Assembly (NCBI RefSeq): GCF_009914755.1
Contig: NC_060940.1
Direction: 5' to 3' (one strand)
From: the human T2T-CHM13v2.0 reference genome, Homo sapiens
Length of the DNA stretch: 64,000 nt
The translations under genes and the position numbers were made by a program. Position 1 is the stretch's first letter. Each line of letters starts with the position of its first letter. Positions 22,097 to 60,128 of this stretch are shown piece after piece. The notes below the pieces were generated by a model. The model worked only from the letters and a program-made list of their open reading frames with translations. It was not told the DNA's origin and searched no databases.

Positions 22097-22266
22097 GGCT
22101 ATGAGGAAAATGGTTTCCCACACCTCTGTTGGAGCTCTCCCGAACTTCCCTATTCTATATAAAATTGGTGGGGATGAGTCCTGGATCCGAGACATGAGAC
22201 ATGCTACATCCTGAGCGCTAGAGCCCTAAGCTCGGCGCGGACCGAGGACGCCGCCAGGCCCGTGCG

Positions 22267-22613
22267 GTCTGCCGTCCTTCGCGGGTGTGTGTCATATCCG
22301 CCGACCCTCGTGGGGGTGTATCCTGTCTGCCGACCCTCGTGGGCGTGTGTCCCGTCTGCCGTCCCTCGCGGGCGTGTGTCCCGTCTGCGGTCCCTTGTGG
22401 GGGTGTGTCCTGTCTGCCGACCCTCGTGGGGGTGTGTCCTGCCTGCCGTCCCTCGCGGGTGTGTTTACTGTCTGCCGTCCCTCGCGGGTGTGTGTCCTGT
22501 CCGCCGTCCCTCGCGGGTGTGTGTCCTCTCTGCTGTCCCTCGAGGGTGTGTGTTTCCTGTCTGCCGTCCCTTGCGGTGTGTGTCCCCTGTCTGCCGTCCC
22601 TCATGGGTGTGTG
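22267..22613. repeat. 29-bp CpG-rich minisatellite, ~12 copies
   Basis: Unit ~GTCTGCCGTCCCTCGCGGGYGTGTGTCCY. Confidence 0.9.
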
Positions 22614-23569
22614 CGGCACCTGCAGCTCCCGGGAGCGGGAACGTCGGGGACAAGAGCTGAAGGGACGAAGGACACTGGAGATGGCCAGGGGGAAACTCGG
22701 CGTGACTCTCTCTTAGGGCTGTGTGAGGGTTTTCAAACCCTCATCCCTGTTTAGGGCCGGCAGCGAGGCCTCACCACAGGGACAAGCCCGGTAGACCTTT
22801 CTCCTCCTTAGGCTCCCAGTAAAATGCTGGGTCCCTTGCCAGTGGAAAACGGAAGAAAAGTTTGGAGCGTTTCTGGAGCCGCCCGTTTGGGAAGAAATGA
22901 ACTCTGACCCCAGCTCCGGCCCGTGTATCGGAGGTCCCAGGGCTGCGAGGGTCGCCTGGGCAGAGCTCAGGCCAAGAAGGAGCTCGGCTGAGGACAGGAG
23001 CCCGGGGTCTGTGTGGGAGACGGGATCCCTTCCTAGGATGCCCGGGCTGGCCTGCTGGGAGGCGGCGGGGTCTCCTCCTCAGGGTCCTGCACTCGGGTTT
23101 CACATCGGGTGAAATTTCTGGGCTGGGGCTCAGCACGCGAGACCGCTGCCTCACGCGGGCCACACAGACCACCTCCCCGCGGGCCGCAGCCCCTGGTCAC
23201 CGGCCCTCCTCTCGGTGCTGGGGCCGCCTGGAGCCGCTGGGAGCCGAGTGGCCCTCGGGGAGGCGGCGCCGCGGTGCCCAGGGTGCGGGGTCCGCCTCTG
23301 TGCGCCTGAGGGCGGGGGTCGTACAGGAGCTCTTCCCGGGGCTGGTCCCCGAGGCGCTGCACCTCCTACCAGCTTCCTGTGATCGAAACCGAAACCTCCA
23401 CCTGCGCAACCCTCCCAGATGGGCTTGAGGTTGGGGTGTGGCCGGGACCCGGGCGGGGAGGGGTAGGGGTGGAGTGAAGGCGGGGACTGGGGGGGTGCGC
23501 GTGGACGGGGAGAGTGGAACCGCGGGTGTGGACCTCCAAGTATAGACGTCAGAGAACATTTGTCGTCCT

Positions 23570-23641: not shown

Positions 23642-24036
23642 CCTTTTTTTTTTTTTTCTGAACACCATCATTTTCTCGCGGTGAAGATTGAGGAGCTTCA
23701 CGGAGTCTCGGCCGCAGGGAACTTGGTCTCTCCGTGGCAGCTGCAGGCGCCGGGGCCGATCCGACTTCCCGCTTCCGTCCGGCTTGCGGCCCCTCGCCTT
23801 GCCCGGCTACAGGAAGGACTCGCCTGCGCCTCCTGACTGGAGCCTTCCACCTGGGAGTTCTGAGTGCGCCTAAGGCCTGGCGCTGAGGCAGTGGACCCCA
23901 GATCCGGGACCCGAAAGGAGGGCAAACACCTCCACCGCCGCGTCTGCCTCTGCGGACGTGGCCCTAGATCCCGGGTGGCCATGGAACTTGGTCTGGGCGT
24001 GTAGTTTTCCTTTGAGTGGGTCGGTTCTAAGTTTAA

Positions 24037-24591
<555 letters not shown>

Positions 24592-24998: not shown

Positions 24999-25093
24999 GG
25001 CTCGTTGGTCTAGGGGTGTGGTTCTCGCTTAGGGACCACAGGGACAAGCCCGGGAGACCCAAGAGGTCCCGGGTTCAAATCCCGGACGAGCCC
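24999..25093 (+). tRNA. TRP-AGG3-1: tRNA-Pro(AGG)-derived gene with insertion after G37 (probable pseudogene)
   Basis: Pro 5' and 3' halves present; TGCG replaced by 27 nt (25035-61); two A>G changes in the D arm. Confidence 0.85.
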
Positions 25094-25133
25094 ACACTTT
25101 AAGAACCCAGCAGGGGCTGGGCGCGGTCGCTCA

Positions 25134-25484
<351 letters not shown>

Positions 25485-25487
25485 CTA

Positions 25488-25788
<301 letters not shown>

Positions 25789-30062: not shown

Positions 30063-31050
30063 TGTAGGGGCCAGCCCTACAGGGTCTGTGGGGTTTTCTC
30101 CCCATGTATGTAGATGAGAGACCATAGAAATAAAGACACAAGACAAAGAGATAAAAGAAAAGACAGTTGGGCCCCAGGGGGACCACCACCACCAAGACGC
30201 GGAGACCGGTAGTGGCCCCGAATGCCAGGCTGCCCTGTTATTTATTGGATACAAGGCAAGGGGGCAGGGTAAGGAGTGTGAGCCATCTCCAGTGATAGGT
30301 GAGGTCACGTGGGTCACATGTCCACTGGACGGGGCCCTTCCCTGTATGGCACCCGAGGAGGAGAGAGAGAGAGGAAAGACAGCTTACGCCATTATTTCTG
30401 CATTTTAGAGGCTTTTAATACTTTCACTAATTCTGCTACTGCTATCTAGAAGGCAGAGCCAGGTGTACAGGATGGAACATGAAAGTGGACCAGGAGCGTG
30501 ACTGCTGAAGCACAGCATCACAGGGAGACGGTTAGGCCTCCAGACCTGACTAATGTCAGGCCCTCCACAGGAGATGGTGGAGTAGAGTCTTCTCTCTAAA
30601 CTCCCCCGGGGAAAGGGAGACTCCCTTTCCCGGTCTGCTAAATAGCGGGTGCTTTTCCTTGGCACTGACGCTATCACTAGACCACGGTCTGCTTGGTAAC
30701 TTCCGTCTTCCCAGACGCTGGCGTTACCGCTAGACCAAGGAGCCCTCTGGTGGCCCTGTCTGGGCATAACAGAAGGCTCACGCTTGTCTTCTGGTCACTT
30801 CTCACCATGTTCCTCCAGCTCCTATCTCTGTATGGCCTGGTTTTTCATAGGTTATGATTGTAGAGCGAGGATTATTATAATATTGGAATAAAGAGTAATT
30901 ACTACAAACTAATGATTAATCATACTTATATATAGTCATATCTATGATCTATATCTAGTATAACTCTTGTTATTTTATATATTTTATTATACTGGAACAG
31001 CTCGTGCCCTCGGTCTCTTGCCTCGGCACCTGGGTGGCTTGCCGCCCACT
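30063..31050 (-). mobile_element. Solo LTR13 (HERV-K/HML-4 type)
   Basis: Minus strand begins GTGGGCGGCAAGCCACCCAGGTGCCGAGG; 6-bp TSD GGTCAA at 30057-62 and 31051-56. Confidence 0.88.
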
Positions 31051-35641: not shown

Positions 35642-36659
35642 TCGGTGGCGGGAAGCACCATCTTTGCTCCTCCACTCCCTCACCCCCCTCCCGCCCCGCG
35701 CCTTATCTTTCTGGAACCCAAGACTTCGTATTCTCCGCTCTCCATAAACGTCGATGCCAGCTCTAGGAGCGTGGCCGGGAGCCCACGATCGCGGCAGCGA
35801 GAAGCCCAACCAGAGGGGAGGAGGGAGTCCCCGGAGTGGGACAGCGCTCAGGTCTGGGGTGGGGTTGATCTAGGGCAAAATAGGGCGGGCGGCCTGTGGC
35901 GATGGGCAGGACCCTCTCGCCCACCACACGCGGAACTCGCTGGATCCTCTCCACATCCAGGCCGCGTCCACTGGCTTTCCAACCTGCTCAGGTCCTTAAA
36001 GAAGGATTCAAAAGGTGTTGCGGTATTGGCCCAACAGGATTTGACCCTGAGGCCCACTCTCACCCTAATCATAACCGCAAAACCACCAGCGCCTGGAGAG
36101 AGAGTGAGAGAGAAACAGAAACGGAGCGAGTGTGTGTCGCTGTGATGCCCTTTGCCGTCGCTGCTCATCCCCAGTGACCTCCTGGAACTTTTTCAGCTCT
36201 TGCTGACAGAGGAAGACACGGGGGCAGAGCTAACGTCTGAGTCAGGGCAGAGGCGCTGGGCTCCATCCGAGGGAGGCTATGGGGGCGCCTCTGGGATGGA
36301 GCCAACCACCGGCGCAGTCGGATGAAAGGTGGGCTGGCCGCTCAGCCATCCTCCTAGGGCAAGGCCTTGGGTATGAGTCAGCAGCCCCAGGTGTGAGCGC
36401 AGACCCGGTAACCCCGGCGCAGGGGAAAATACAGCGGGGAGCCCCAGGCTGCAGGCCTGACCCTGAGCATCCCCTACCAAGCCCAGTGTGGATGGGCTCT
36501 GTCTCCAAGGGGCTGGTTCACCAGGGTCTCCCCGCAGCGACCCCAGAATTCTGCCAATCACTTGGGGACGGCGATGAGCTCTATCCACTTCGGAATCAGC
36601 CGATTTGTGCCGGATTGGTGGCAGGTGTCTGAAATGTCAGCGGAAATACACGCACGGGA

Positions 36660-42232: not shown

Positions 42233-42922
42233 AACTCCTGACCTCAAGTGATTCGCCCACCTCCGTCTCCTGAAGTGTTGGGATTACAGGTGTGAACCAC
42301 CGTGCCGGGCCTACAACCGGCAATTCTTGATCCTTCACACCGACTCTCGCTGTCCTCCAAGATTTTTCCTCTTTACCTATAGAGTCTCCAGGACTCGATC
42401 CCCAATCCCTTGCAAGCCCTGCAGGGAAACTGGAGGGCACTGGCTTCCCCACCTTTACTCCCCACAGTTGCTCCTCAGGACCACAGGAACGGAAGGGACC
42501 AAGCCCCTAACCTAGAATGTTAGTGATTTTAGAAGGAAAAAACTTTGGGCTTATTCAGGACTAGAACCTGAGATCTCTTACGCCTTATGTGAAAAGCATG
42601 CCTGAATCAGGCTTGACGGCACATTCCTATAATCCCAGAACTTGGGTAGTCTGAGAAGGGAGGATTACTTGAGCCCAGGAGTTCAAGACCAGGCTGGGCA
42701 ACCAAGAGGGACCCCATCTCTACTATTGCTACTGCTACTACAAAAAATAAATTGCCAAGAATTGTGGCTCAGCCTGTAGTCTCAGCTACCTGAGAGGCTG
42801 AAGTGGAAGGACTACTCGAGCCCAGAAGGTCGAGGCTACAGTAAGCTGTGACTGCATCACTGCACTCCAGCCTGGGTGACAAAGTGAGACTCTATCTCAA
42901 AATTTCAGAAAAAGCAAAATAG

Positions 42923-43361
<439 letters not shown>

Positions 43362-45165
43362 TGAGTGGTGTTCCTTGCAGCAGCATTAAGGAGCACACCC
43401 GAGGAGTTGTGCCAATGTATTTTTCATTATAAACTATCCTAAATAGGCTGAGTGAGGTGGCTCACACCTGTAATCCCAGCGCTTTGGGAGACCAAGGCAG
43501 GCAGATCACCTGGAGGTCGAGAGTTTGCGACCAACCTGACCAACACGGAGAAACTGCATCTGTACTAAAAATACAAAATTAGCCGGGCGTGGTGGTGCAT
43601 GCCTGTAATCCCAGCTACTTGGGAGGTGAAGGCAGGAAAATCGCTTCAACCCGGGAGGCGGAGGTTGTGGTGAGCCAGGAAGGTGCTATTGCACTCCAGC
43701 CTGGGCAACAAGAGCAAAACTCCATCTCAAAAAAAAAAAAAAAAAAAAAAAAACTATTCTGATAAACCGGCCGGGCGCGGTGGCTCTCGCCTGTAATCCC
43801 AGCACTTTAGGAGGCAGAGGCAGGCAGATCACCTGAGGCCAGGAGTTCGAGACCAGCCTGGCCAACATGGTGAAACCCCATGTCTACTAAAAACATACAA
43901 AAATTAGCCGGCCGTGGTGGCGCGTTCCTGCAATCATAGCTACTCAAGGGAGGCTGAGCAGGAGAATTCCTTGAACCCGGGAGGCAGAGGTTGCAGTGAG
44001 CGGATATCCCATCACCACACTCCAGCCTGCGTGACAGAGCGAGACTCATCTCAATCAGTAAATCAATCAGTCAATAAACCTCACTGCCCCAGGAATGCCG
44101 ACACCAAGTCAAGCAGACCTTCTCTTCCCTGCCGTCCGCTTCCCTGACCTGCTGGGGTTGGGAGGGCACATTCTGTGGCAGGTTGACTGGGTTTCCATGT
44201 TTCCATCCCAGCTCCTCAATTTTGTCTGAAAATGCAATAATAAGAGTATAGTAGTGAAGATTAAACGAGTTTAGATAAGTAAAGAGCTTACAAGAGTGTT
44301 AGGCATGGTGAGCCTAATAAGCATTAGCTACGTCTACTGCTAATGTTGAACATCCTAATCTCTGCCCCCTGGGTCACCGTCACCAGCCTCACAACTCTGC
44401 AAGCAGGTACCAGCAGCACCACGCTGGCCGTACAAGCAGAGATCCAGTGAAATCTTGTATGCACCCAGAGGGTCCGGGTGGAGGGAGGTTGGGTAACTCA
44501 GGAGACCACAGCTGCTCCCTCCGGCTGCACTGGGCACTTCTGGGAGGATCCGGCACCCACCTCCCTGGGCTGGAGGCCTCTAATCAGAGAGGAAGGCAGG
44601 AAAGCCAGACACTGGGACTGTCAAACTAGTGAACATTGGGATCTCTATCCCCCTCTACTTGATGGGACCTGAGTCAAACTCTACCTGACATGACCCCCTG
44701 GGGATCAGCATCTGGGCAGTGTTGCTGGACAAGGGTGGAGCCAGGCATAAGGACGATGGGAGATAAGCAGAGAAAGGTTTTGTAGGTGGCTCCTTGTCCA
44801 GGCTATGATTGTTGCTTAGGGTACAAGAGAGTCCAATCCTGTACAAGCTAAGGTTCTCAGACTTTCTTCTGTTTTAATGAGGACAGCCCTGTTGGGATCC
44901 CAGAAAAGGAAAACCCTAGTGGGGGTCTTCCCCAGGGCCTCTGCTATCAAGGAGCGAGGAATTACTGTTCTCCTGGTCTTCCAGGTAGGAACCGCATCCA
45001 TGGGGCAGGAGCCAGGATGGCTTTCTGGAATAAGCAGGGGAGGGCATAACCAGACATTGGTCACTTTAAATCTTCTGCTTGAGTTTCTTCTTTCACCAAG
45101 TCTTGCATTGCCAGGGGCAGAAAGCTGGGAGAAAAAGATGTACCTTCATGGTACAGCAAAAGGCA

Positions 45166-47316: not shown

Positions 47317-48742
47317 ACACGCCCCGTAGCCTCCGGCTTGTCTTTGTGGCCTTCGTGGAGTCCTCGTGGCCAGAGGTGGGGACCCAGCAGAGCAGAGCTA
47401 GGAGGAGACTCCGATTTCCTGAAGTCTGGAAGAGACAAGTTCAAGCGCGGGTGGACGCGGAGGGAGCCCTGAGCCCCCGCTTCTCCCTGCGCCGCACAAA
47501 ATGGGGAGCATCCCCTGTGCCCCCACAATCCGGGGCCCCCCGGGCCCTCGCCCGCCTCCGCCTCTCAGCCCTGGGCTGGGGATCCGCGCGTCACGCCGCG
47601 TCGCGTAGTGAGGAGCTCCAGCTCCGGCGGGACATGGGAACCTCTCAAGAGCTGGCAGCGGCTGCGCGGAGGGTCCGCGAACCGCGACCACTGGACGCCC
47701 GCCTTGGAAACGCTGCAGCCCGGCGGCGTGGTGCAGATGGGTGGTCAGTAGAGGCCTCGCCAGTGCACCAGGAACCAGCCACCAGGCCCCCTACCTCGAC
47801 GCGCCCCACGCTTCTCCCGCTCCGGTCCTCTCTTCTCCCCCAGGGAAGCCAAAACCCAGAAGGTGAGCTTCCCACGTGGAACCTCAATTCAAGAGGCTGA
47901 CACTGAGCGTCGCTTCGCTCCACCAGACCCGCGGCGCCCGCCGGAGTCAGCGATGTACCCCCTTCCCTTTCACTGGGGGAACTGGCGGAACCTCCGGTCA
48001 CCAGGACGTGGGGAAGCAGAGGCCGCTTGGGGCAGCAGAGGCCGCGTCCAGGTGTCGGTTCCGGGGCACCTTTTACTGTCACTCTGTCCTTCTCTGTGTC
48101 CAAATTTCACCCGGAGCCCGAGAATTCGGCAGGTCTGGACTGAAAACGTCTCCCCATCCCCTCCGGATCCAAGCCTCGAATTTCCTGGCTCAGTGGGAAG
48201 GCCTCGGGGTCTGGGCGTGGAGACGGGGCCCGAGACCCCCACCCCGCCAGGGCCCACTAAAGTGCTGCCAGCTGAGCCCCGGCCTTCGCCCCTCCTTCGT
48301 CTCTCCCTCATTCCCCTCCCTCTGACACCCCGCCACATACATTACTCCCCGCAATACCATGCAATTTTAAGCTAGGGTAGGGCTCACCTGAGACTGGAGC
48401 CGCCATACCGTCGAACCCTACGAAAAATTTATGCCCGTAAATAAACAAGCCCGGCGCATTCTTCCTTATTCTAAATAACTTCTTCCTGCTGCACGGGGTC
48501 GTCTCCTTTAACCACGGCTACCGCAGTTGGTAGTGCTGGATCCCATTTCAGGGTGATGGGATGCTGGATCCCATTTCAGGGTGATAGGACCGACCGCAAG
48601 GCGAACGATTCAGGCCCGTCCGTCTGCGTCCCGGGACCCCGGGAGGTCTCCACTGACGCCCTGCCAGCAGCAGGCTCCCTCCGCCTTCCTAGTCTCCTGT
48701 CCTTGCTGAAAATGCGAAATGGGAAAAAAGAGAAGGAAAAGG

Positions 48743-52775: not shown

Positions 52776-54243
52776 CCTTTTCCTTCTCTTTTTTCCCATT
52801 TCGCATTTTCAGCAAGGACAGGAGACTAGGAAGGCGGAGGGAGGCTGCTATTGGCAGGGCCTCAGTGGAGACCTCCCGGGGTCCCGGGACGCAGACGGAC
52901 GGGCCTGAATCGCTCGCCTTGGTGAAATGGGATCCAGCGCTGCCAACTGCGGCAACTGCGGTTAAAGGAGACGACCCCGTGCAGCAGGAGGAGGTTATTT
53001 AGAATAAGGAAGAATGCGCCGGGCTCATTGGTCGCTACAGGGGCATAAATTTTTTCTAGGATTCCAGAGTATGGCTGCTCCAGTCCCAGGTGAGCCCTCC
53101 TCCGCTTAAAATTCCAGTTTATTCGGAGAAGGGGAGAATACCGGAAGCGGGGGAGAAGGGAGGGGAGTGAGTGAGAGGAGGGAGGCGGGGAAGACCGGGC
53201 ATCCGCGGGCAGCACTTCAGTCGGCCCTGGCGGGGTGGGGGTCTCGGCCCTTGTCCCCACCCCCAGACCCCGGGGCCTTCCCACTGAGAGCGAGGGAATT
53301 CGCGGCTTTGATCTGGAGGGGACAGGGAGCCCCTTTTAGCCCAGATCTGCTGGATTCTCGGGAGTCAGGTGAAATCTGGATACAGGGAAGGGCAGAGTGA
53401 CAGTAAAGGGTGCCCCGGAACCGATGCCCGACGCCTGCTGCCCCACGGCCTTCATTCTTGCTCCTCCTCACGTCCTGGGGACTGGAGGTCCCGCCAGCTC
53501 CCCCCAGTGAAGGGCAAGGGGGCGCATCGCAGAATCGCCCCTGGTGCGCAGCGTAGTTGGTGGCCTAAGCCGTCTTCTCCGAGAGCTCAGCCATCCTGGG
53601 CACTTGAGGCCAGGCAGGCGCTGCGGGGCTGGTTCAGTCGATGGAGAAAAGAGACTCTCAGCGTCAGCCTTTAGGGTTCGAGGCCCACGTGGGAAACTCG
53701 CTTTCTGGGTTTTGGCTTCCCTGGGGAGAAGGGAGGACCGGAGCCGGAGAAGCGTGAGGTGCGGCGAGGTAGGGTGCCTGGTAGCTGGTGTCTCGTGCAC
53801 TCCGTCAGGCCTTTATTGAACACCCATTGGTGCCACGCTGAGGGACTGCAGCGTTTCCAAGGCGAGCTTGCAGTGATCGAGGCTCGCAGACCCTCAGCGC
53901 AGCCGCTGCCTGCTATTGGGAGGTTCCCATGTCCTGCGGAAGCTGGAGCTCCTCACTGCGCGCCTCGGAGACGCCGAATCCCCAACTCAAGGCCGAGTGG
54001 CGGTGGCGGGCGAGGACCCAGGGCCCTTCTGGATTGTGGTAGCGCCAGGGCTGCTCCCCATTTTGTGCGTCGCGGAGGAGGGGCCGGGGCTCTGGGCTTC
54101 CGCCACACCCATCCTCACTTGAAATTGCCCCTTCCAGGCGGGTCTGAAATAAGATTCTACTCACTGGGTCCTGCTGGGTCCGCCCCAGCCGCCCCCAGGA
54201 TGCTAGGACGCCCACAAAGATAACCTTAATGCGTAAATCGTGT

Positions 54244-58388: not shown

Positions 58389-58527
58389 TAGAGACGGGGT
58401 CTCGCTATGTTGCTCAAGCTGGCATACTTCCTTGAATAAATGCCCAAACCAATTCTAGGGTCATTTTCTAGCCACCCGCGATAAGTTATTCTGTCTTTTA
58501 ATATTCTCAGTAGGGCACGTGGTAACT

Positions 58528-58600
58528 GCCCCAGTGGCCTGATGGATAAGGTACTGGCCTCCTAAGCCAGGGATTGTGGGTTCGAGTTCCACCTGGGGTA
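58528..58600 (+). tRNA. TRR-CCT5-1: tRNA-Arg(CCT) variant (A14G, C61T)
   Basis: GCCTGATGG and GTTCGAGTT deviate from the 17501 copy. Confidence 0.9.
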
Positions 58601-60128
58601 AGACAACACCGACCGTAGGTGACTTGGGGTAAGGTATCACGCCTTTTAAAAAGGACAAAGCATGGAGACACATAAGTAGAAAAACTTTGCAAGAATAAGA
58701 AGAAACGGCATGAATTTGGAAGAAAAACAGGGCATTAAACAAGACACACAATCTCCTCTCTCTCTAGGATGAGAAGAGTGAAGATTTTACTTACCTCTCT
58801 CCACATCAAAGGGACAAGAAAAAGCAATGTACAGCTTTTGTATATATCAAAGTGGGAAAATGTTGGAGGCTGGTTTTCTGTTTTGGTTTGTTTGTTTGGT
58901 TTGGTTTGTCTTTCTGTTTTAGAAAGCACCCCTTGTATACACACCTCTTTGGCCCACACGTTCCATTTCATAGAAATAAGAGTACCATGTATGTACAAGG
59001 ATGTTTTATTGCAGTAATTTTGTTCAAAAACGGGAAGGGAGATGACCATGAATAGGGGATGAATTGAATACAGTTTGTTTCATTAATGTTGCTCAACCTC
59101 AGAAAAGAACGTTCAATCTATCCTGGTTGACTTGGATATCCCCCACGGGAGAGATGTATGACACTTTACAAAACAAGCAGCGACTCTGAGGCCCCAGATG
59201 TTTGTGTATGATCAGTGCCAAAGGCTCTTGGCACTCGGGCCAGAGGAGAGGAGGGGAGAAAAAAGATTCTAGTAAAATGGAAAAATATGCAGATCAAAAG
59301 TAAACAGGAACAGGAGAAAACAGAGGTCTCTTTTGGAATTTAAGGGGGGCACTTGCGGAATTGGAAGTGAGGTGGGCAGATGATCATGTGGACTTAATGT
59401 GGTTTATGATCGTGAGTGATTTAGGTCTCGCTATGTTGTTCAGGCTGGTCTGGAACTCCTGTGCTCAAGTTATCTTCCTGCCTCGGCCTCCCAAAATGCT
59501 GGGATTACAGGCGTGAGCCACCGCCCTTCTTCTGTGACTTCTGATAGTGACTCCTGGGCATGAAAGACCTCGAGGGTGGAGTCTTGGCATCGGTCCAGGA
59601 TTTGGGGTCCAGCAAGTGCTGTCCAGATTGGCGTGTCACTCAGTGAGCACTCTGGTGGCGGAAGGCCCCGTGTCCCCCGGAGCACAATGCCAGCCGTGCT
59701 CCGGGAAGCGCATCCCGGCCCAGGAGGGTGCTTCTTGCTCAGAGCCCGGGTCCTGGACCCAATCTCAGACCCTGCGCCTCCGGCGCTCTCCCCCCAACCG
59801 TTCCTTCTCTTCCTGCCGCTACGGAAACAGGAGAGAATCCTCCCTAAAAAGACAGGTAACTCATTGTGCTAATTGCGTTTACTATTAAAAAAAGAAAAGA
59901 AAAGAAAACAGAAAAAAAGGCAAAAAACAAAACAACAAACAAACCAAAACAGCTACCGCGACTTGTGTGCGGGTTAAACGACGCACTAGCTTCAAATGCG
60001 GGCGTCCATCCCAGTGAGAAAGGAAACAGGGCCCGGCGCGGTGGCTCAGAGAGGCAAGGCCGGGAGATTACCTGAGGTCAGGAGTTCGAGACCAGCCTGG
60101 CTAACATGGTGAAACCCTGTCTCTACTA

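What the first reader, a model, noticed from the sequence alone, without database searches (positions are those of the whole stretch)
24999..25093. tRNA-Pro 'intron' is a templated copy of DNA 2.26 kb upstream
Seen: the insert ACCACAGGGACAAGCCCGGGAGACC (25035-59) matches 22773-22797 (ACCACAGGGACAAGCCCGGTAGACC) at 24/25 positions, in the same orientation. It sits exactly after G37, the canonical intron position, and replaces TGCG, which breaks the anticodon stem. TTAGGG precedes the insert and also lies 16 nt upstream of the donor (22751-56). Established: human tRNA-Pro genes are normally intronless. Inference: a repair or template-switch insertion mimics an intron, either a scanner false positive or a snapshot of how tRNA introns can arise.
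Basis: partly seen in the sequence, partly recalled or inferred. Interest (0 to 1): 0.7.

Follow-up and report, generated by a model that had tools for sequence, protein, structure and literature searches.

The report
Copied DNA patch in dead tRNA-Pro gene
A decayed human proline tRNA gene copy carries, at the spot where tRNA introns normally sit, a 25-base patch copied from DNA 2.26 kb upstream, which looks like the scar of an old break repair and not a working intron.

Summary
Window 24999-25093 (+) is a 95-nt tRNA-Pro(AGG)-like sequence. Its extra 25 nt (25035-25059) match 22773-22797 at 24/25 on the same strand, 2262 nt upstream. This is neither chance nor a repeat. 0 of 100 shuffles gave two hits. 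In the whole assembly only these two copies and one unrelated chr7 near-match exist at up to 3 mismatches, and the donor's 401-nt surroundings are single copy.

The host is a pseudogene:
- The anticodon stem is 3/5 paired.
- There are two D-arm substitutions.
- There is no Pol III terminator (first TTTT at +680, against +3 to +14 in seven annotated genes).
- The Rfam score is 31.4 bits against a cut-off of 29.
- It is absent from the RefSeq table.

Both junctions are blunt and two bases are lost. The best reading is a germline break in the anticodon-loop DNA sealed by end joining around a copied patch. That is a known kind of event (templated insertion, class 2 TSIP).

The intron likeness is positional only. 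A pre-tRNA-like fold costs about 23 kcal/mol against the best fold. Polarity and age need primate orthologues, which were not available.

The parts
24999..25034 (+). 5' part of the tRNA-Pro(AGG)-like pseudogene (tRNA positions 1-37). It has two lineage-specific A>G changes, at 25018 (A21G) and 25021 (A24G).
   Evidence: Alignment with 9 Pro genes of the window; 94.6% identity over 37 nt to AGG2-7 and AGG2-8; differences listed.
25035..25059 (+). 25-nt templated insert. G25054 is the one mismatch to the donor.
   Evidence: 24/25 match to 22773-22797; absent from all other Pro genes.
25060..25093 (+). 3' part of the pseudogene (tRNA positions 40-73). 25061 is A where the family has the G of a CpG. 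25062-25093 is identical to six intact Pro genes.
   Evidence: 32/32 identity to six genes.
22773..22797 (+). Template (donor) of the insert, lying in single-copy DNA.
   Evidence: The 401-nt surroundings match only themselves in the whole assembly. No similarity beyond the 25 nt.
22751..22756 (+). TTAGGG hexamer 16 nt before the donor, identical to the six bases before the insert. Its role is unproven.
   Evidence: TTAGGG occurs 19 times on the + strand of the 64-kb window, so about a 0.5-1% chance of one within 16-30 nt.
22703..22740 (+). Decayed tRNA-Pro relic (tRNA positions 21-61), ending 33 nt before the donor.
   Evidence: Local alignment score 31.5; 0 of 500 shuffles and 9 of 1528 window tiles reach it.
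25007..25022 (+). D-arm segment GGTCTA-GGGG-TGTGGT. Its two hexamers are reverse complements of the last six bases (donor version TAGACC) and the first six bases (ACCACA) of the 25-mer. Significance is uncertain.
25101..25731 (+). Two Alu elements that start 8-20 nt after the pseudogene. No TTTT occurs before +680.
   Evidence: repeat mask in the hub table.

Best explanation
A tRNA-Pro(AGG) gene copy in the chr16p13.3 tRNA cluster suffered a DNA break in the stretch that encodes the anticodon loop, in the germline of an ancestor. The break was sealed by end joining. Two bases (T38 G39) were lost, and a 25-nt patch copied from unique DNA 2262 nt upstream on the same strand was put between the ends. 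The donor stayed intact, so this was a copy and not a move.

The patch destroys the 3' strand of the anticodon stem. The gene is dead, killed either by this event or before it. It has since picked up, or already carried, two D-arm substitutions and one CpG transition, and it lacks a terminator. The insert is not an intron, and the resemblance is one of position only.

Shown: the copy, its uniqueness, the blunt junctions, and the pseudogene features. Inferred: the direction donor to tRNA (from paralogues only), a break as the trigger, and end joining of a ready-made patch in preference to microhomology-primed template switching.
For: - Copy: 24/25 identity on the same strand, and 0 of 100 shuffles give two hits.
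- Uniqueness: only 3 places genome-wide at up to 3 mismatches, with 0 for the reversed control. The chr7 place shares nothing beyond 26 nt. The donor surroundings are single copy.
- Direction: all 9 other Pro genes and pseudogenes in the window lack the insert, as do the 25 other places matched genome-wide. This locus is the only genome-wide hit to a Pro pattern with a 6-36 nt gap.
- Junctions: no base is shared between the donor flanks (..CTC| and |TTTC) and the target flanks (..GGG| and |CGAG/CAAG), read directly. There is no target-site duplication and no poly(A), and 2 nt are lost. The class 2 TSIP review lists microdeletion and the lack of a duplication or poly(A) tract among the marks of break repair with a DNA patch (PMC5110952, passages).
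- No second patch: outside the 25-mer, with its 19-nt exact core, the two neighbourhoods share only 8-mers.
- Pseudogene: Rfam tRNA scores 31.4 bits against a cut-off of 29, with neighbours at 56.7 and 65.1. ARAGORN by default does not call it. The first TTTT is at +680, against +3 to +14 in 7 annotated genes and +264 and +320 in the 2 annotated pseudogenes. The anticodon stem is 3/5 paired, and the cloverleaf-plus-intron fold is -22.3 against an MFE of -45.9 kcal/mol.
- Context: tRNA loci mutate 7-10 times faster than the genome average (PMC6130373, abstract and passages).
Against: - No outgroup was available, so polarity rests on paralogues alone. The donor locus could in principle have received the 25-mer.
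- Blunt junctions do not exclude polymerase theta or a replicative switch, and later substitutions could have erased 1-2 nt of microhomology.
- Three non-random-looking features remain unexplained by simple patch capture. (1) TTAGGG lies 16 nt before the donor (about 0.5-1% by chance). (2) Both ends of the 25-mer are reverse complements of hexamers in this gene's own D arm. That holds for 68 of 127,952 random window 25-mers against this target, for 470 of 127,952 against any of four targets, and for 1919 of 127,952 at the looser 4+6 level if the unmutated family sequence is used. (3) A decayed tRNA-Pro relic ends 33 nt before the donor.
- The one mismatch may be polymerase error or later mutation, so it does not date the event.
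Confidence: 0.6

Rival explanations
1. Replicative template switching (FoSTeS/MMBIR-type). A stalled nascent strand left the tRNA gene, copied 25 nt from the locus 2.26 kb upstream, and returned, skipping 2 nt.
For: tRNA genes are heavily transcribed and hypermutable (PMC6130373). Germline templated insertions of 25 bp or more attributed to MMBIR number about 100 per person (103 and 99 events in two individuals; PMC8421209, passages). The donor and the copy are on the same strand, and the donor is nearby and lies next to paralogous tRNA-Pro-derived DNA. The TTAGGG hexamer near the donor and the D-arm complementarity hint at base-pairing in donor choice.
Against: There is no microhomology at either junction. 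In that study 138 of 155 and 135 of 148 resolvable germline junctions had at least 1 bp. Priming at TTAGGG predicts that the 16 intervening bases are copied too, and they are absent. A hairpin that could loop them out is not supported: the donor DNA folds are no better than 38 of 200 and 59 of 200 shuffles.
Confidence: 0.22
2. RNA-derived patch. A fragment of a transcript running through 22773-22797, for instance a Pol III read-through trailer of the neighbouring tRNA-Pro relic, was reverse-transcribed or used directly as a template to patch the break (class 2 templated sequence insertion).
For: Class 2 TSIPs are proposed to come from reverse-transcribed RNA used as a patch (PMC5110952, passages). 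The donor starts about 22 nt after the inferred 3' end of the relic at 22703-22740 and ends exactly where a TTT run begins (22798-22800), where a Pol III transcript could stop. The copy has the sense orientation of that putative transcript.
Against: There is no evidence that the relic was ever transcribed. It is too decayed for Rfam to report it at E up to 1. TTT is not a canonical terminator. The 5' end of the patch matches no known processing site. A boundary next to a TTT run is expected by chance in a few per cent of cases.
Confidence: 0.1
3. Reverse polarity or a third source. The 25-mer arose in the tRNA gene, or elsewhere, and was copied to 22773.
For: No outgroup was examined. The 25-mer contains GGACAAGCCC, 9/10 identical to the 3' end of tRNA-Pro. 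Its ends pair with the D arm, so a tRNA-related origin is conceivable.
Against: None of the other Pro genes has it. The similarity of the 25-mer and its surroundings to tRNA-Pro is not significant: 95 of 2000 shuffles for the 25-mer, and 169 of 2000 shuffles and 400 of 3766 tiles for 22745-22810. No third copy exists in the assembly.
Confidence: 0.05
4. A real, spliced tRNA intron, or a new structured Pol III RNA under selection. On this reading the lineage-specific changes A21G, A24G and T>G in the insert are compensatory.
For: The insert sits at 37/38. The sequences that I take, from recalled consensus motifs, to be the A and B boxes are unchanged relative to the other Pro genes. All three changes strengthen predicted helices: the inferred ancestor folds at -41.3 and the present sequence at -45.9 kcal/mol. 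The present fold has z = -2.87, with 3 of 200 shuffles as good.
Against: With substitutions of the same types placed at random, 176 of 2500 four-change sets and 223 of 2500 three-change sets stabilise as much, so the effect is not significant. The anticodon stem is 3/5 paired and the pre-tRNA fold costs about 23 kcal/mol. There is no terminator for 680 nt. The locus is absent from the RefSeq tRNA table.
Confidence: 0.02
5. A chance match, or a shared fragment of a common repeat.
For: One further near-match exists on chr7, at 2 mismatches to the insert version.
Against: 0 of 100 shuffles give two hits. Only 3 places exist genome-wide at up to 3 mismatches, and the reversed control gives 0. The chr7 locus shares only 26 nt with the donor locus. 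The donor region is single copy.
Confidence: 0.01

Closest known systems
Class 2 templated sequence insertion polymorphisms (TSIP; break repaired with a patch copied from elsewhere in the genome)
   Same: The insert is a copy of another locus that stays intact. There is no target-site duplication and no poly(A). A microdeletion is present at the target. The event is germline-fixed or at least assembled (PMC5110952, passages).
   Different: I did not check the size range or donor distance reported for TSIPs against this 25-nt, same-chromosome, 2.26-kb case. Polymorphism was not tested. An RNA origin is unproven.
MMBIR/FoSTeS templated insertions (MMB-TI)
   Same: A short templated insertion with replacement of a few bases, found as a germline variant. 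In size it meets the 25 bp or more used in that survey (PMC8421209, passages).
   Different: Neither junction has microhomology, whereas about 90% of their junctions do. The template is 2262 nt away, and their search covered only 100 bp.
Canonical eukaryotic tRNA intron (between positions 37 and 38, cut by TSEN using the ruler mechanism)
   Same: The position in the gene. The length is similar to what I recall for human tRNA introns (not checked).
   Different: It is confined to one decayed copy. The exon sequence is damaged, so the anticodon stem cannot re-form. The predicted fold is not a pre-tRNA, and there is no terminator.
Short-range template-switch mutations that create or perfect hairpins (PMC5453318 and PMC8794818; search listing and abstract starts only)
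   Same: The two clustered D-arm changes turn TATGAT into TGTGGT, the exact reverse complement of the first six bases of the insert 12 nt downstream.
   Different: The insert itself is a direct copy from a distance, not an inverted local one. The hairpin-perfecting pattern did not pass a type-matched control.

Membership tests
Canonical eukaryotic tRNA intron | Intervening sequence lies between tRNA positions 37 and 38 | tested here: met
   Alignment with 9 Pro genes. The insert starts right after TTAGGG. The numbering is my mapping.
Canonical eukaryotic tRNA intron | Removal restores a tRNA with an intact anticodon stem, and the pre-tRNA keeps the mature-domain fold that the endonuclease measures from | tested here: not met
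   With a 23-nt excision the stem has 3 of 5 pairs (C-A and C-C mismatches). The cloverleaf-with-intron fold is -22.3 against an MFE of -45.9 kcal/mol.
Canonical eukaryotic tRNA intron | Shared by the genes of the isodecoder family (the review notes that genes for an isodecoder tend to be all with or all without an intron; PMC4090602, section 18) | tested here: not met
   Absent from all other Pro genes. The gap pattern hits only this locus.
Canonical eukaryotic tRNA intron | Transcribed and spliced | not testable with these tools
   No expression data were available. There is no TTTT for 680 nt downstream.
Templated insertion at a repaired break (class 2 TSIP type) | Insert matches another genomic locus that remains in place | tested here: met
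   24/25 identity to 22773-22797, with the donor still present in single-copy DNA.
Templated insertion at a repaired break (class 2 TSIP type) | No target-site duplication and no poly(A) tract | tested here: met
   Read directly.
Templated insertion at a repaired break (class 2 TSIP type) | End-joining marks at the junctions (microdeletion, microhomology or untemplated bases) | tested here: met
   A 2-nt deletion and 0 nt of microhomology at both junctions. The alternative parse gives 2 untemplated bases (CA).
Templated insertion at a repaired break (class 2 TSIP type) | Empty site in an ancestral or alternative allele | not testable with these tools
   No primate or other human assemblies were available. 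Only paralogues show the uninterrupted state.
MMBIR/FoSTeS templated insertion | Microhomology at the switch points | tested here: not met
   0 nt at both junctions. In PMC8421209, 138 of 155 and 135 of 148 junctions had at least 1 bp.
tRNA pseudogene | Recognisable tRNA-derived sequence that fails structural and transcription-signal checks | tested here: met
   Rfam scores 31.4 bits against 56.7 for the neighbouring Pro gene. ARAGORN by default finds nothing. The anticodon stem is broken. There is no terminator. The locus is not in the RefSeq table.

The most novel reading that the evidence does not exclude
Breaks in the anticodon-loop DNA of transcribed tRNA genes, sealed with short patches copied from nearby DNA, are a recurrent DNA-level route by which eukaryotic tRNA genes gain sequence at position 37/38. 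This locus would be a failed attempt, because two exon bases were lost. An attempt without exon loss would be spliceable at once, since the eukaryotic endonuclease measures distance and does not read a motif. The two D-arm changes and the T>G change would then be later hairpin-templated corrections.
Probability: 0.05. Interest if true: 0.7.

Novelty: new member of a known kind. Interest (0 to 1): 0.3.

Why it matters
How a eukaryotic tRNA gene can gain an intron at the canonical position is an acknowledged open question. One review says it is hard to imagine a DNA-level mechanism and proposes an RNA and reverse-transcription route instead (PMC4090602, section 18). This locus shows that ordinary break repair can place foreign DNA exactly at 37/38 of a tRNA gene. 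That suggests a concrete census: look for nearby templates of lineage-specific tRNA interruptions. On its own it is a single scar in a dead gene and belongs to a well-known class of mutation. It is also a practical warning that intron-tolerant tRNA scanners can turn such scars into false intron-bearing genes.

Tried and rejected
1. Common repeat: rejected.
2. Longer homology between the donor and acceptor neighbourhoods, or a second patch: none. Outside the 25-mer, with its 19-nt exact core, only nine 8-mers are shared. 289 random windows share a mean of 3.75 words of 8 nt or more.
3. Hairpin-perfecting or compensatory substitutions: the inferred ancestor folds at -41.3 and the present sequence at -45.9 kcal/mol. 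Unrestricted random changes match this in 36 of 2500 four-change sets and 21 of 2500 three-change sets. Type-matched changes match it in 176 of 2500 and 223 of 2500, so the effect is not significant.
4. Loop-out of the 16 nt between TTAGGG and the donor: the donor DNA folds are unremarkable, equalled by 38 of 200 and 59 of 200 shuffles. The small GGCC hairpin does not give the observed junction.
5. The donor as the 3' part of a second tRNA-Pro relic (22746-22789): not significant, with 169 of 2000 shuffles and 400 of 3766 tiles as good.
6. Genome-wide census of interrupted tRNAs with RF00005: the tool scored only 63 of 187,059 candidates, so no census was possible.
8. Literature: no paper describing this locus turned up in one full-text search on tRNA-Pro, intron, pseudogene, human and tRNAscan-SE (listing and abstract starts only). 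That is weak evidence that it is unpublished.
9. Two other truncated Pro copies were fetched. The chr4 copy covers tRNA positions 1-38 and then runs into unrelated DNA. The chrX copy covers positions 1-56. Neither carries an insert.

Full report
**Observation.** Window 24999-25093 (+) reads as a tRNA-Pro(AGG) gene with 23 extra bases. Aligned with the nine other Pro genes and pseudogenes of the window, it matches the family up to ..CGCTTAGGG (25034). It then carries ACCACAGGGACAAGCCCGGGAGACC (25035-25059) and resumes with CAAGAGGTCCCGGG.. (25060 onward). The 25 bases match 22773-22797 at 24/25 on the same strand, 2262 nt upstream. The one difference is G25054 against T22792. TTAGGG precedes the insert and also lies 16 nt before the donor (22751-22756).

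**Not chance, not a repeat.** In the window the 25-mer has two matches at up to 3 mismatches, and none of 100 dinucleotide shuffles gave two. In the whole assembly (3.1 Gb) there are three places at up to 2 mismatches to the insert version and the same three at up to 3 mismatches to the donor version. The reversed-pattern control gave none. The third place, on chr7, shares only 26 nt with the donor locus apart from Alu elements. I treat it as unrelated, although a 23/25 match is somewhat unexpected. The 401 nt around the donor match only themselves genome-wide. BLAST with 7-nt words found no similarity between the two neighbourhoods beyond the 25 nt. A k-mer comparison found only nine shared 8-mers outside the 25-mer, whose longest exact run is 19 nt. 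289 random windows share a mean of 3.75 words of 8 nt or more.

**What the host is.** It is a pseudogene.
- The Rfam tRNA model scores it at 31.4 bits against a cut-off of 29. The model treats the anticodon arm and part of the D arm as insertions. The neighbouring Pro and Lys genes score 56.7 and 65.1 bits.
- ARAGORN by default lists 16 tRNA genes in the window and not this one. The RefSeq table supplied with the finding has no gene here.
- Relative to the family it has A>G at 25018 and 25021 (A21G and A24G in my numbering) and A for G at 25061, the G of a CpG.
- If 23 nt are removed to restore a 72-nt tRNA, the anticodon stem has only 3 of 5 pairs.
- The first TTTT downstream is at +680. It is at +3 to +14 in the seven annotated Pro genes of the window, and at +264 and +320 in the two annotated pseudogenes.
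- Two Alu elements begin 8-20 nt after the gene.
- The cluster also holds at least eight further unannotated, decayed tRNA-Pro relics, so gene death is common here.

**Direction of copying.** No primate or other human assembly was available, so polarity rests on paralogues. None of the other Pro genes in the window carries the insert, nor does any of the 25 other places matched genome-wide. A pattern that allows 6-36 nt between the two Pro halves hits only this locus. The parsimonious reading is donor to tRNA gene.

**Junctions and mechanism.** The simplest parse is loss of T38 G39, gain of 25 nt, and a separate CpG transition. The donor flanks (..CTC| and |TTTC) and the target flanks (..GGG| and |CGAG) share no base at either junction. 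There is no target-site duplication and no poly(A).

Microdeletion, and the lack of a target-site duplication or poly(A) tract, are among the marks reviewed for class 2 templated sequence insertions, in which a break is repaired with a patch copied from elsewhere (PMC5110952, passages). Germline templated insertions ascribed to microhomology-mediated template switching mostly show microhomology: 138 of 155 and 135 of 148 junctions had at least 1 bp. That survey looked only within 100 bp for templates (PMC8421209, passages).

I therefore favour end joining around a ready-made copied patch, with a replicative switch as the main rival. tRNA loci are known to mutate 7-10 times faster than average, which is attributed to transcription (PMC6130373, abstract and passages). 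That makes a break there plausible, but it is not shown.

**Patterns that simple capture does not explain.**
- The TTAGGG hexamer 16 nt before the donor has roughly a 0.5-1% chance, given 19 occurrences per 64 kb strand. Priming there would also copy the 16 intervening bases, which are absent. The donor DNA folds offer no convincing loop-out, being equalled by 38 of 200 and 59 of 200 shuffles.
- The first six bases of the 25-mer (ACCACA) and the last six of the donor version (TAGACC) are reverse complements of TGTGGT (25017-22) and GGTCTA (25007-12) in this gene's D arm. Among 127,952 random 25-mers of the window, 68 do as well against this target and 470 against any of four targets. The first match depends on the two lineage-specific A>G changes. 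With the family sequence only 4+6 bases match, a level reached by 1919 of 127,952.
- A decayed tRNA-Pro relic lies at 22703-22740, ending 33 nt before the donor. Its alignment score is 31.5, reached by 0 of 500 shuffles and 9 of 1528 tiles. A second relic covering the donor itself is not supported: 169 of 2000 shuffles and 400 of 3766 tiles do as well.

Together these features hint that donor choice was not random. Base-pairing, or the proximity of paralogous tRNA-derived DNA, may have played a part. None of them is decisive.

**Hairpin idea, tested and not upheld.** All three non-CpG lineage-specific changes strengthen predicted helices. TGTGGT pairs with ACCACA, and the G in the insert completes AGCCCGGGA against UCCCGGGUU of the T arm. 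An inferred earlier state folds at -41.3 kcal/mol and the present sequence at -45.9. Unrestricted random changes do as well in 36 of 2500 four-change sets and 21 of 2500 three-change sets. Changes of the same types do as well in 176 of 2500 and 223 of 2500. The pattern is therefore compatible with chance. Template-switch correction, as in PMC5453318 and PMC8794818 (search listing and abstract starts only), remains a possibility and nothing more.

**Is it an intron?** Only in position. A fold that keeps the acceptor, D, T and residual anticodon stems with the insert looped out has -22.3 kcal/mol against an MFE of -45.9. In the best fold the insert sequesters the 5' strand of the T stem. With intron search switched on, ARAGORN reports a shifted and spurious tRNA-Leu(TAG) with a 16-nt intron, which shows how a scanner can be misled. 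A review states that the way eukaryotic tRNA genes gain introns at the canonical position is unknown, and that a DNA-level mechanism is hard to imagine (PMC4090602, section 18 part 1). This locus shows that such an insertion can happen at the DNA level. It is one case, in a dead gene, with exon bases lost.

**Age.** One difference in 25 nt and three in 70 exon bases suggest an age of the order of ten million years, using a recalled neutral rate near 1e-9 per site per year. The uncertainty runs from almost zero to about 1e8 years, and the mismatch may be a copying error.

**Limits.** There were no outgroups, no population data and no expression data, and tRNAscan-SE was not available. The RF00005 genome search scored only 63 of 187,059 candidates, so no census of similar scars was possible. 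Supplementary files of the cited papers were not consulted.

Noticed in passing
window 22703-22740 (+); 23988-24051 (+); 30725-30744 (-); 36037-36090 (-); 42547-42602 (-); 44788-44848 (+); 48380-48451 (-); 53022-53097 (+): At least eight decayed tRNA-Pro-like relics that are not in the RefSeq table supplied with the finding. The cluster seems to evolve by repeated birth and death of Pro gene copies.
   Followed up: partly
window 58527-58601 (+): ARAGORN calls a 75-nt tRNA-Arg(CCT) here. The supplied RefSeq table lists no gene at this place.
   Followed up: no
window 22233-22609: A minisatellite with a 29-nt period and nine overlapping register copies of a 145-nt reference (family D2). It ends about 165 nt before the donor 25-mer.
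   Followed up: no
window 25101-25113 and 25418-25430: AAGAACCCAGCAG is repeated on both sides of the first Alu. It looks like the target-site duplication of a younger Alu inserted into an older, 5'-truncated Alu that begins about 10 nt after the pseudogene.
   Followed up: partly
L015 (G000:C4:19039850-19040350), locus positions 184-221: A copy of tRNA-Pro positions 1-38 only, ending in the anticodon loop and followed by unrelated DNA. This is a second Pro-derived sequence whose boundary lies in the anticodon loop.
   Followed up: partly
L016 (G000:C23:65475650-65476150), minus strand, positions 240-295: A Pro-like copy covering tRNA positions 1-56 and truncated in the T loop.
   Followed up: partly
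L003 (G000:C7:131109971-131109995): A 23/25 match to the insert with no similarity beyond 26 nt. That is rarer than a uniform random model predicts (my estimate is about 0.02 expected), and it is unexplained.
   Followed up: partly
window 24999-25093: ARAGORN with intron search parses the locus as tRNA-Leu(TAG) with a 16-nt intron and a long variable arm. This is an example of a repair scar producing a false intron-bearing tRNA call.
   Followed up: yes
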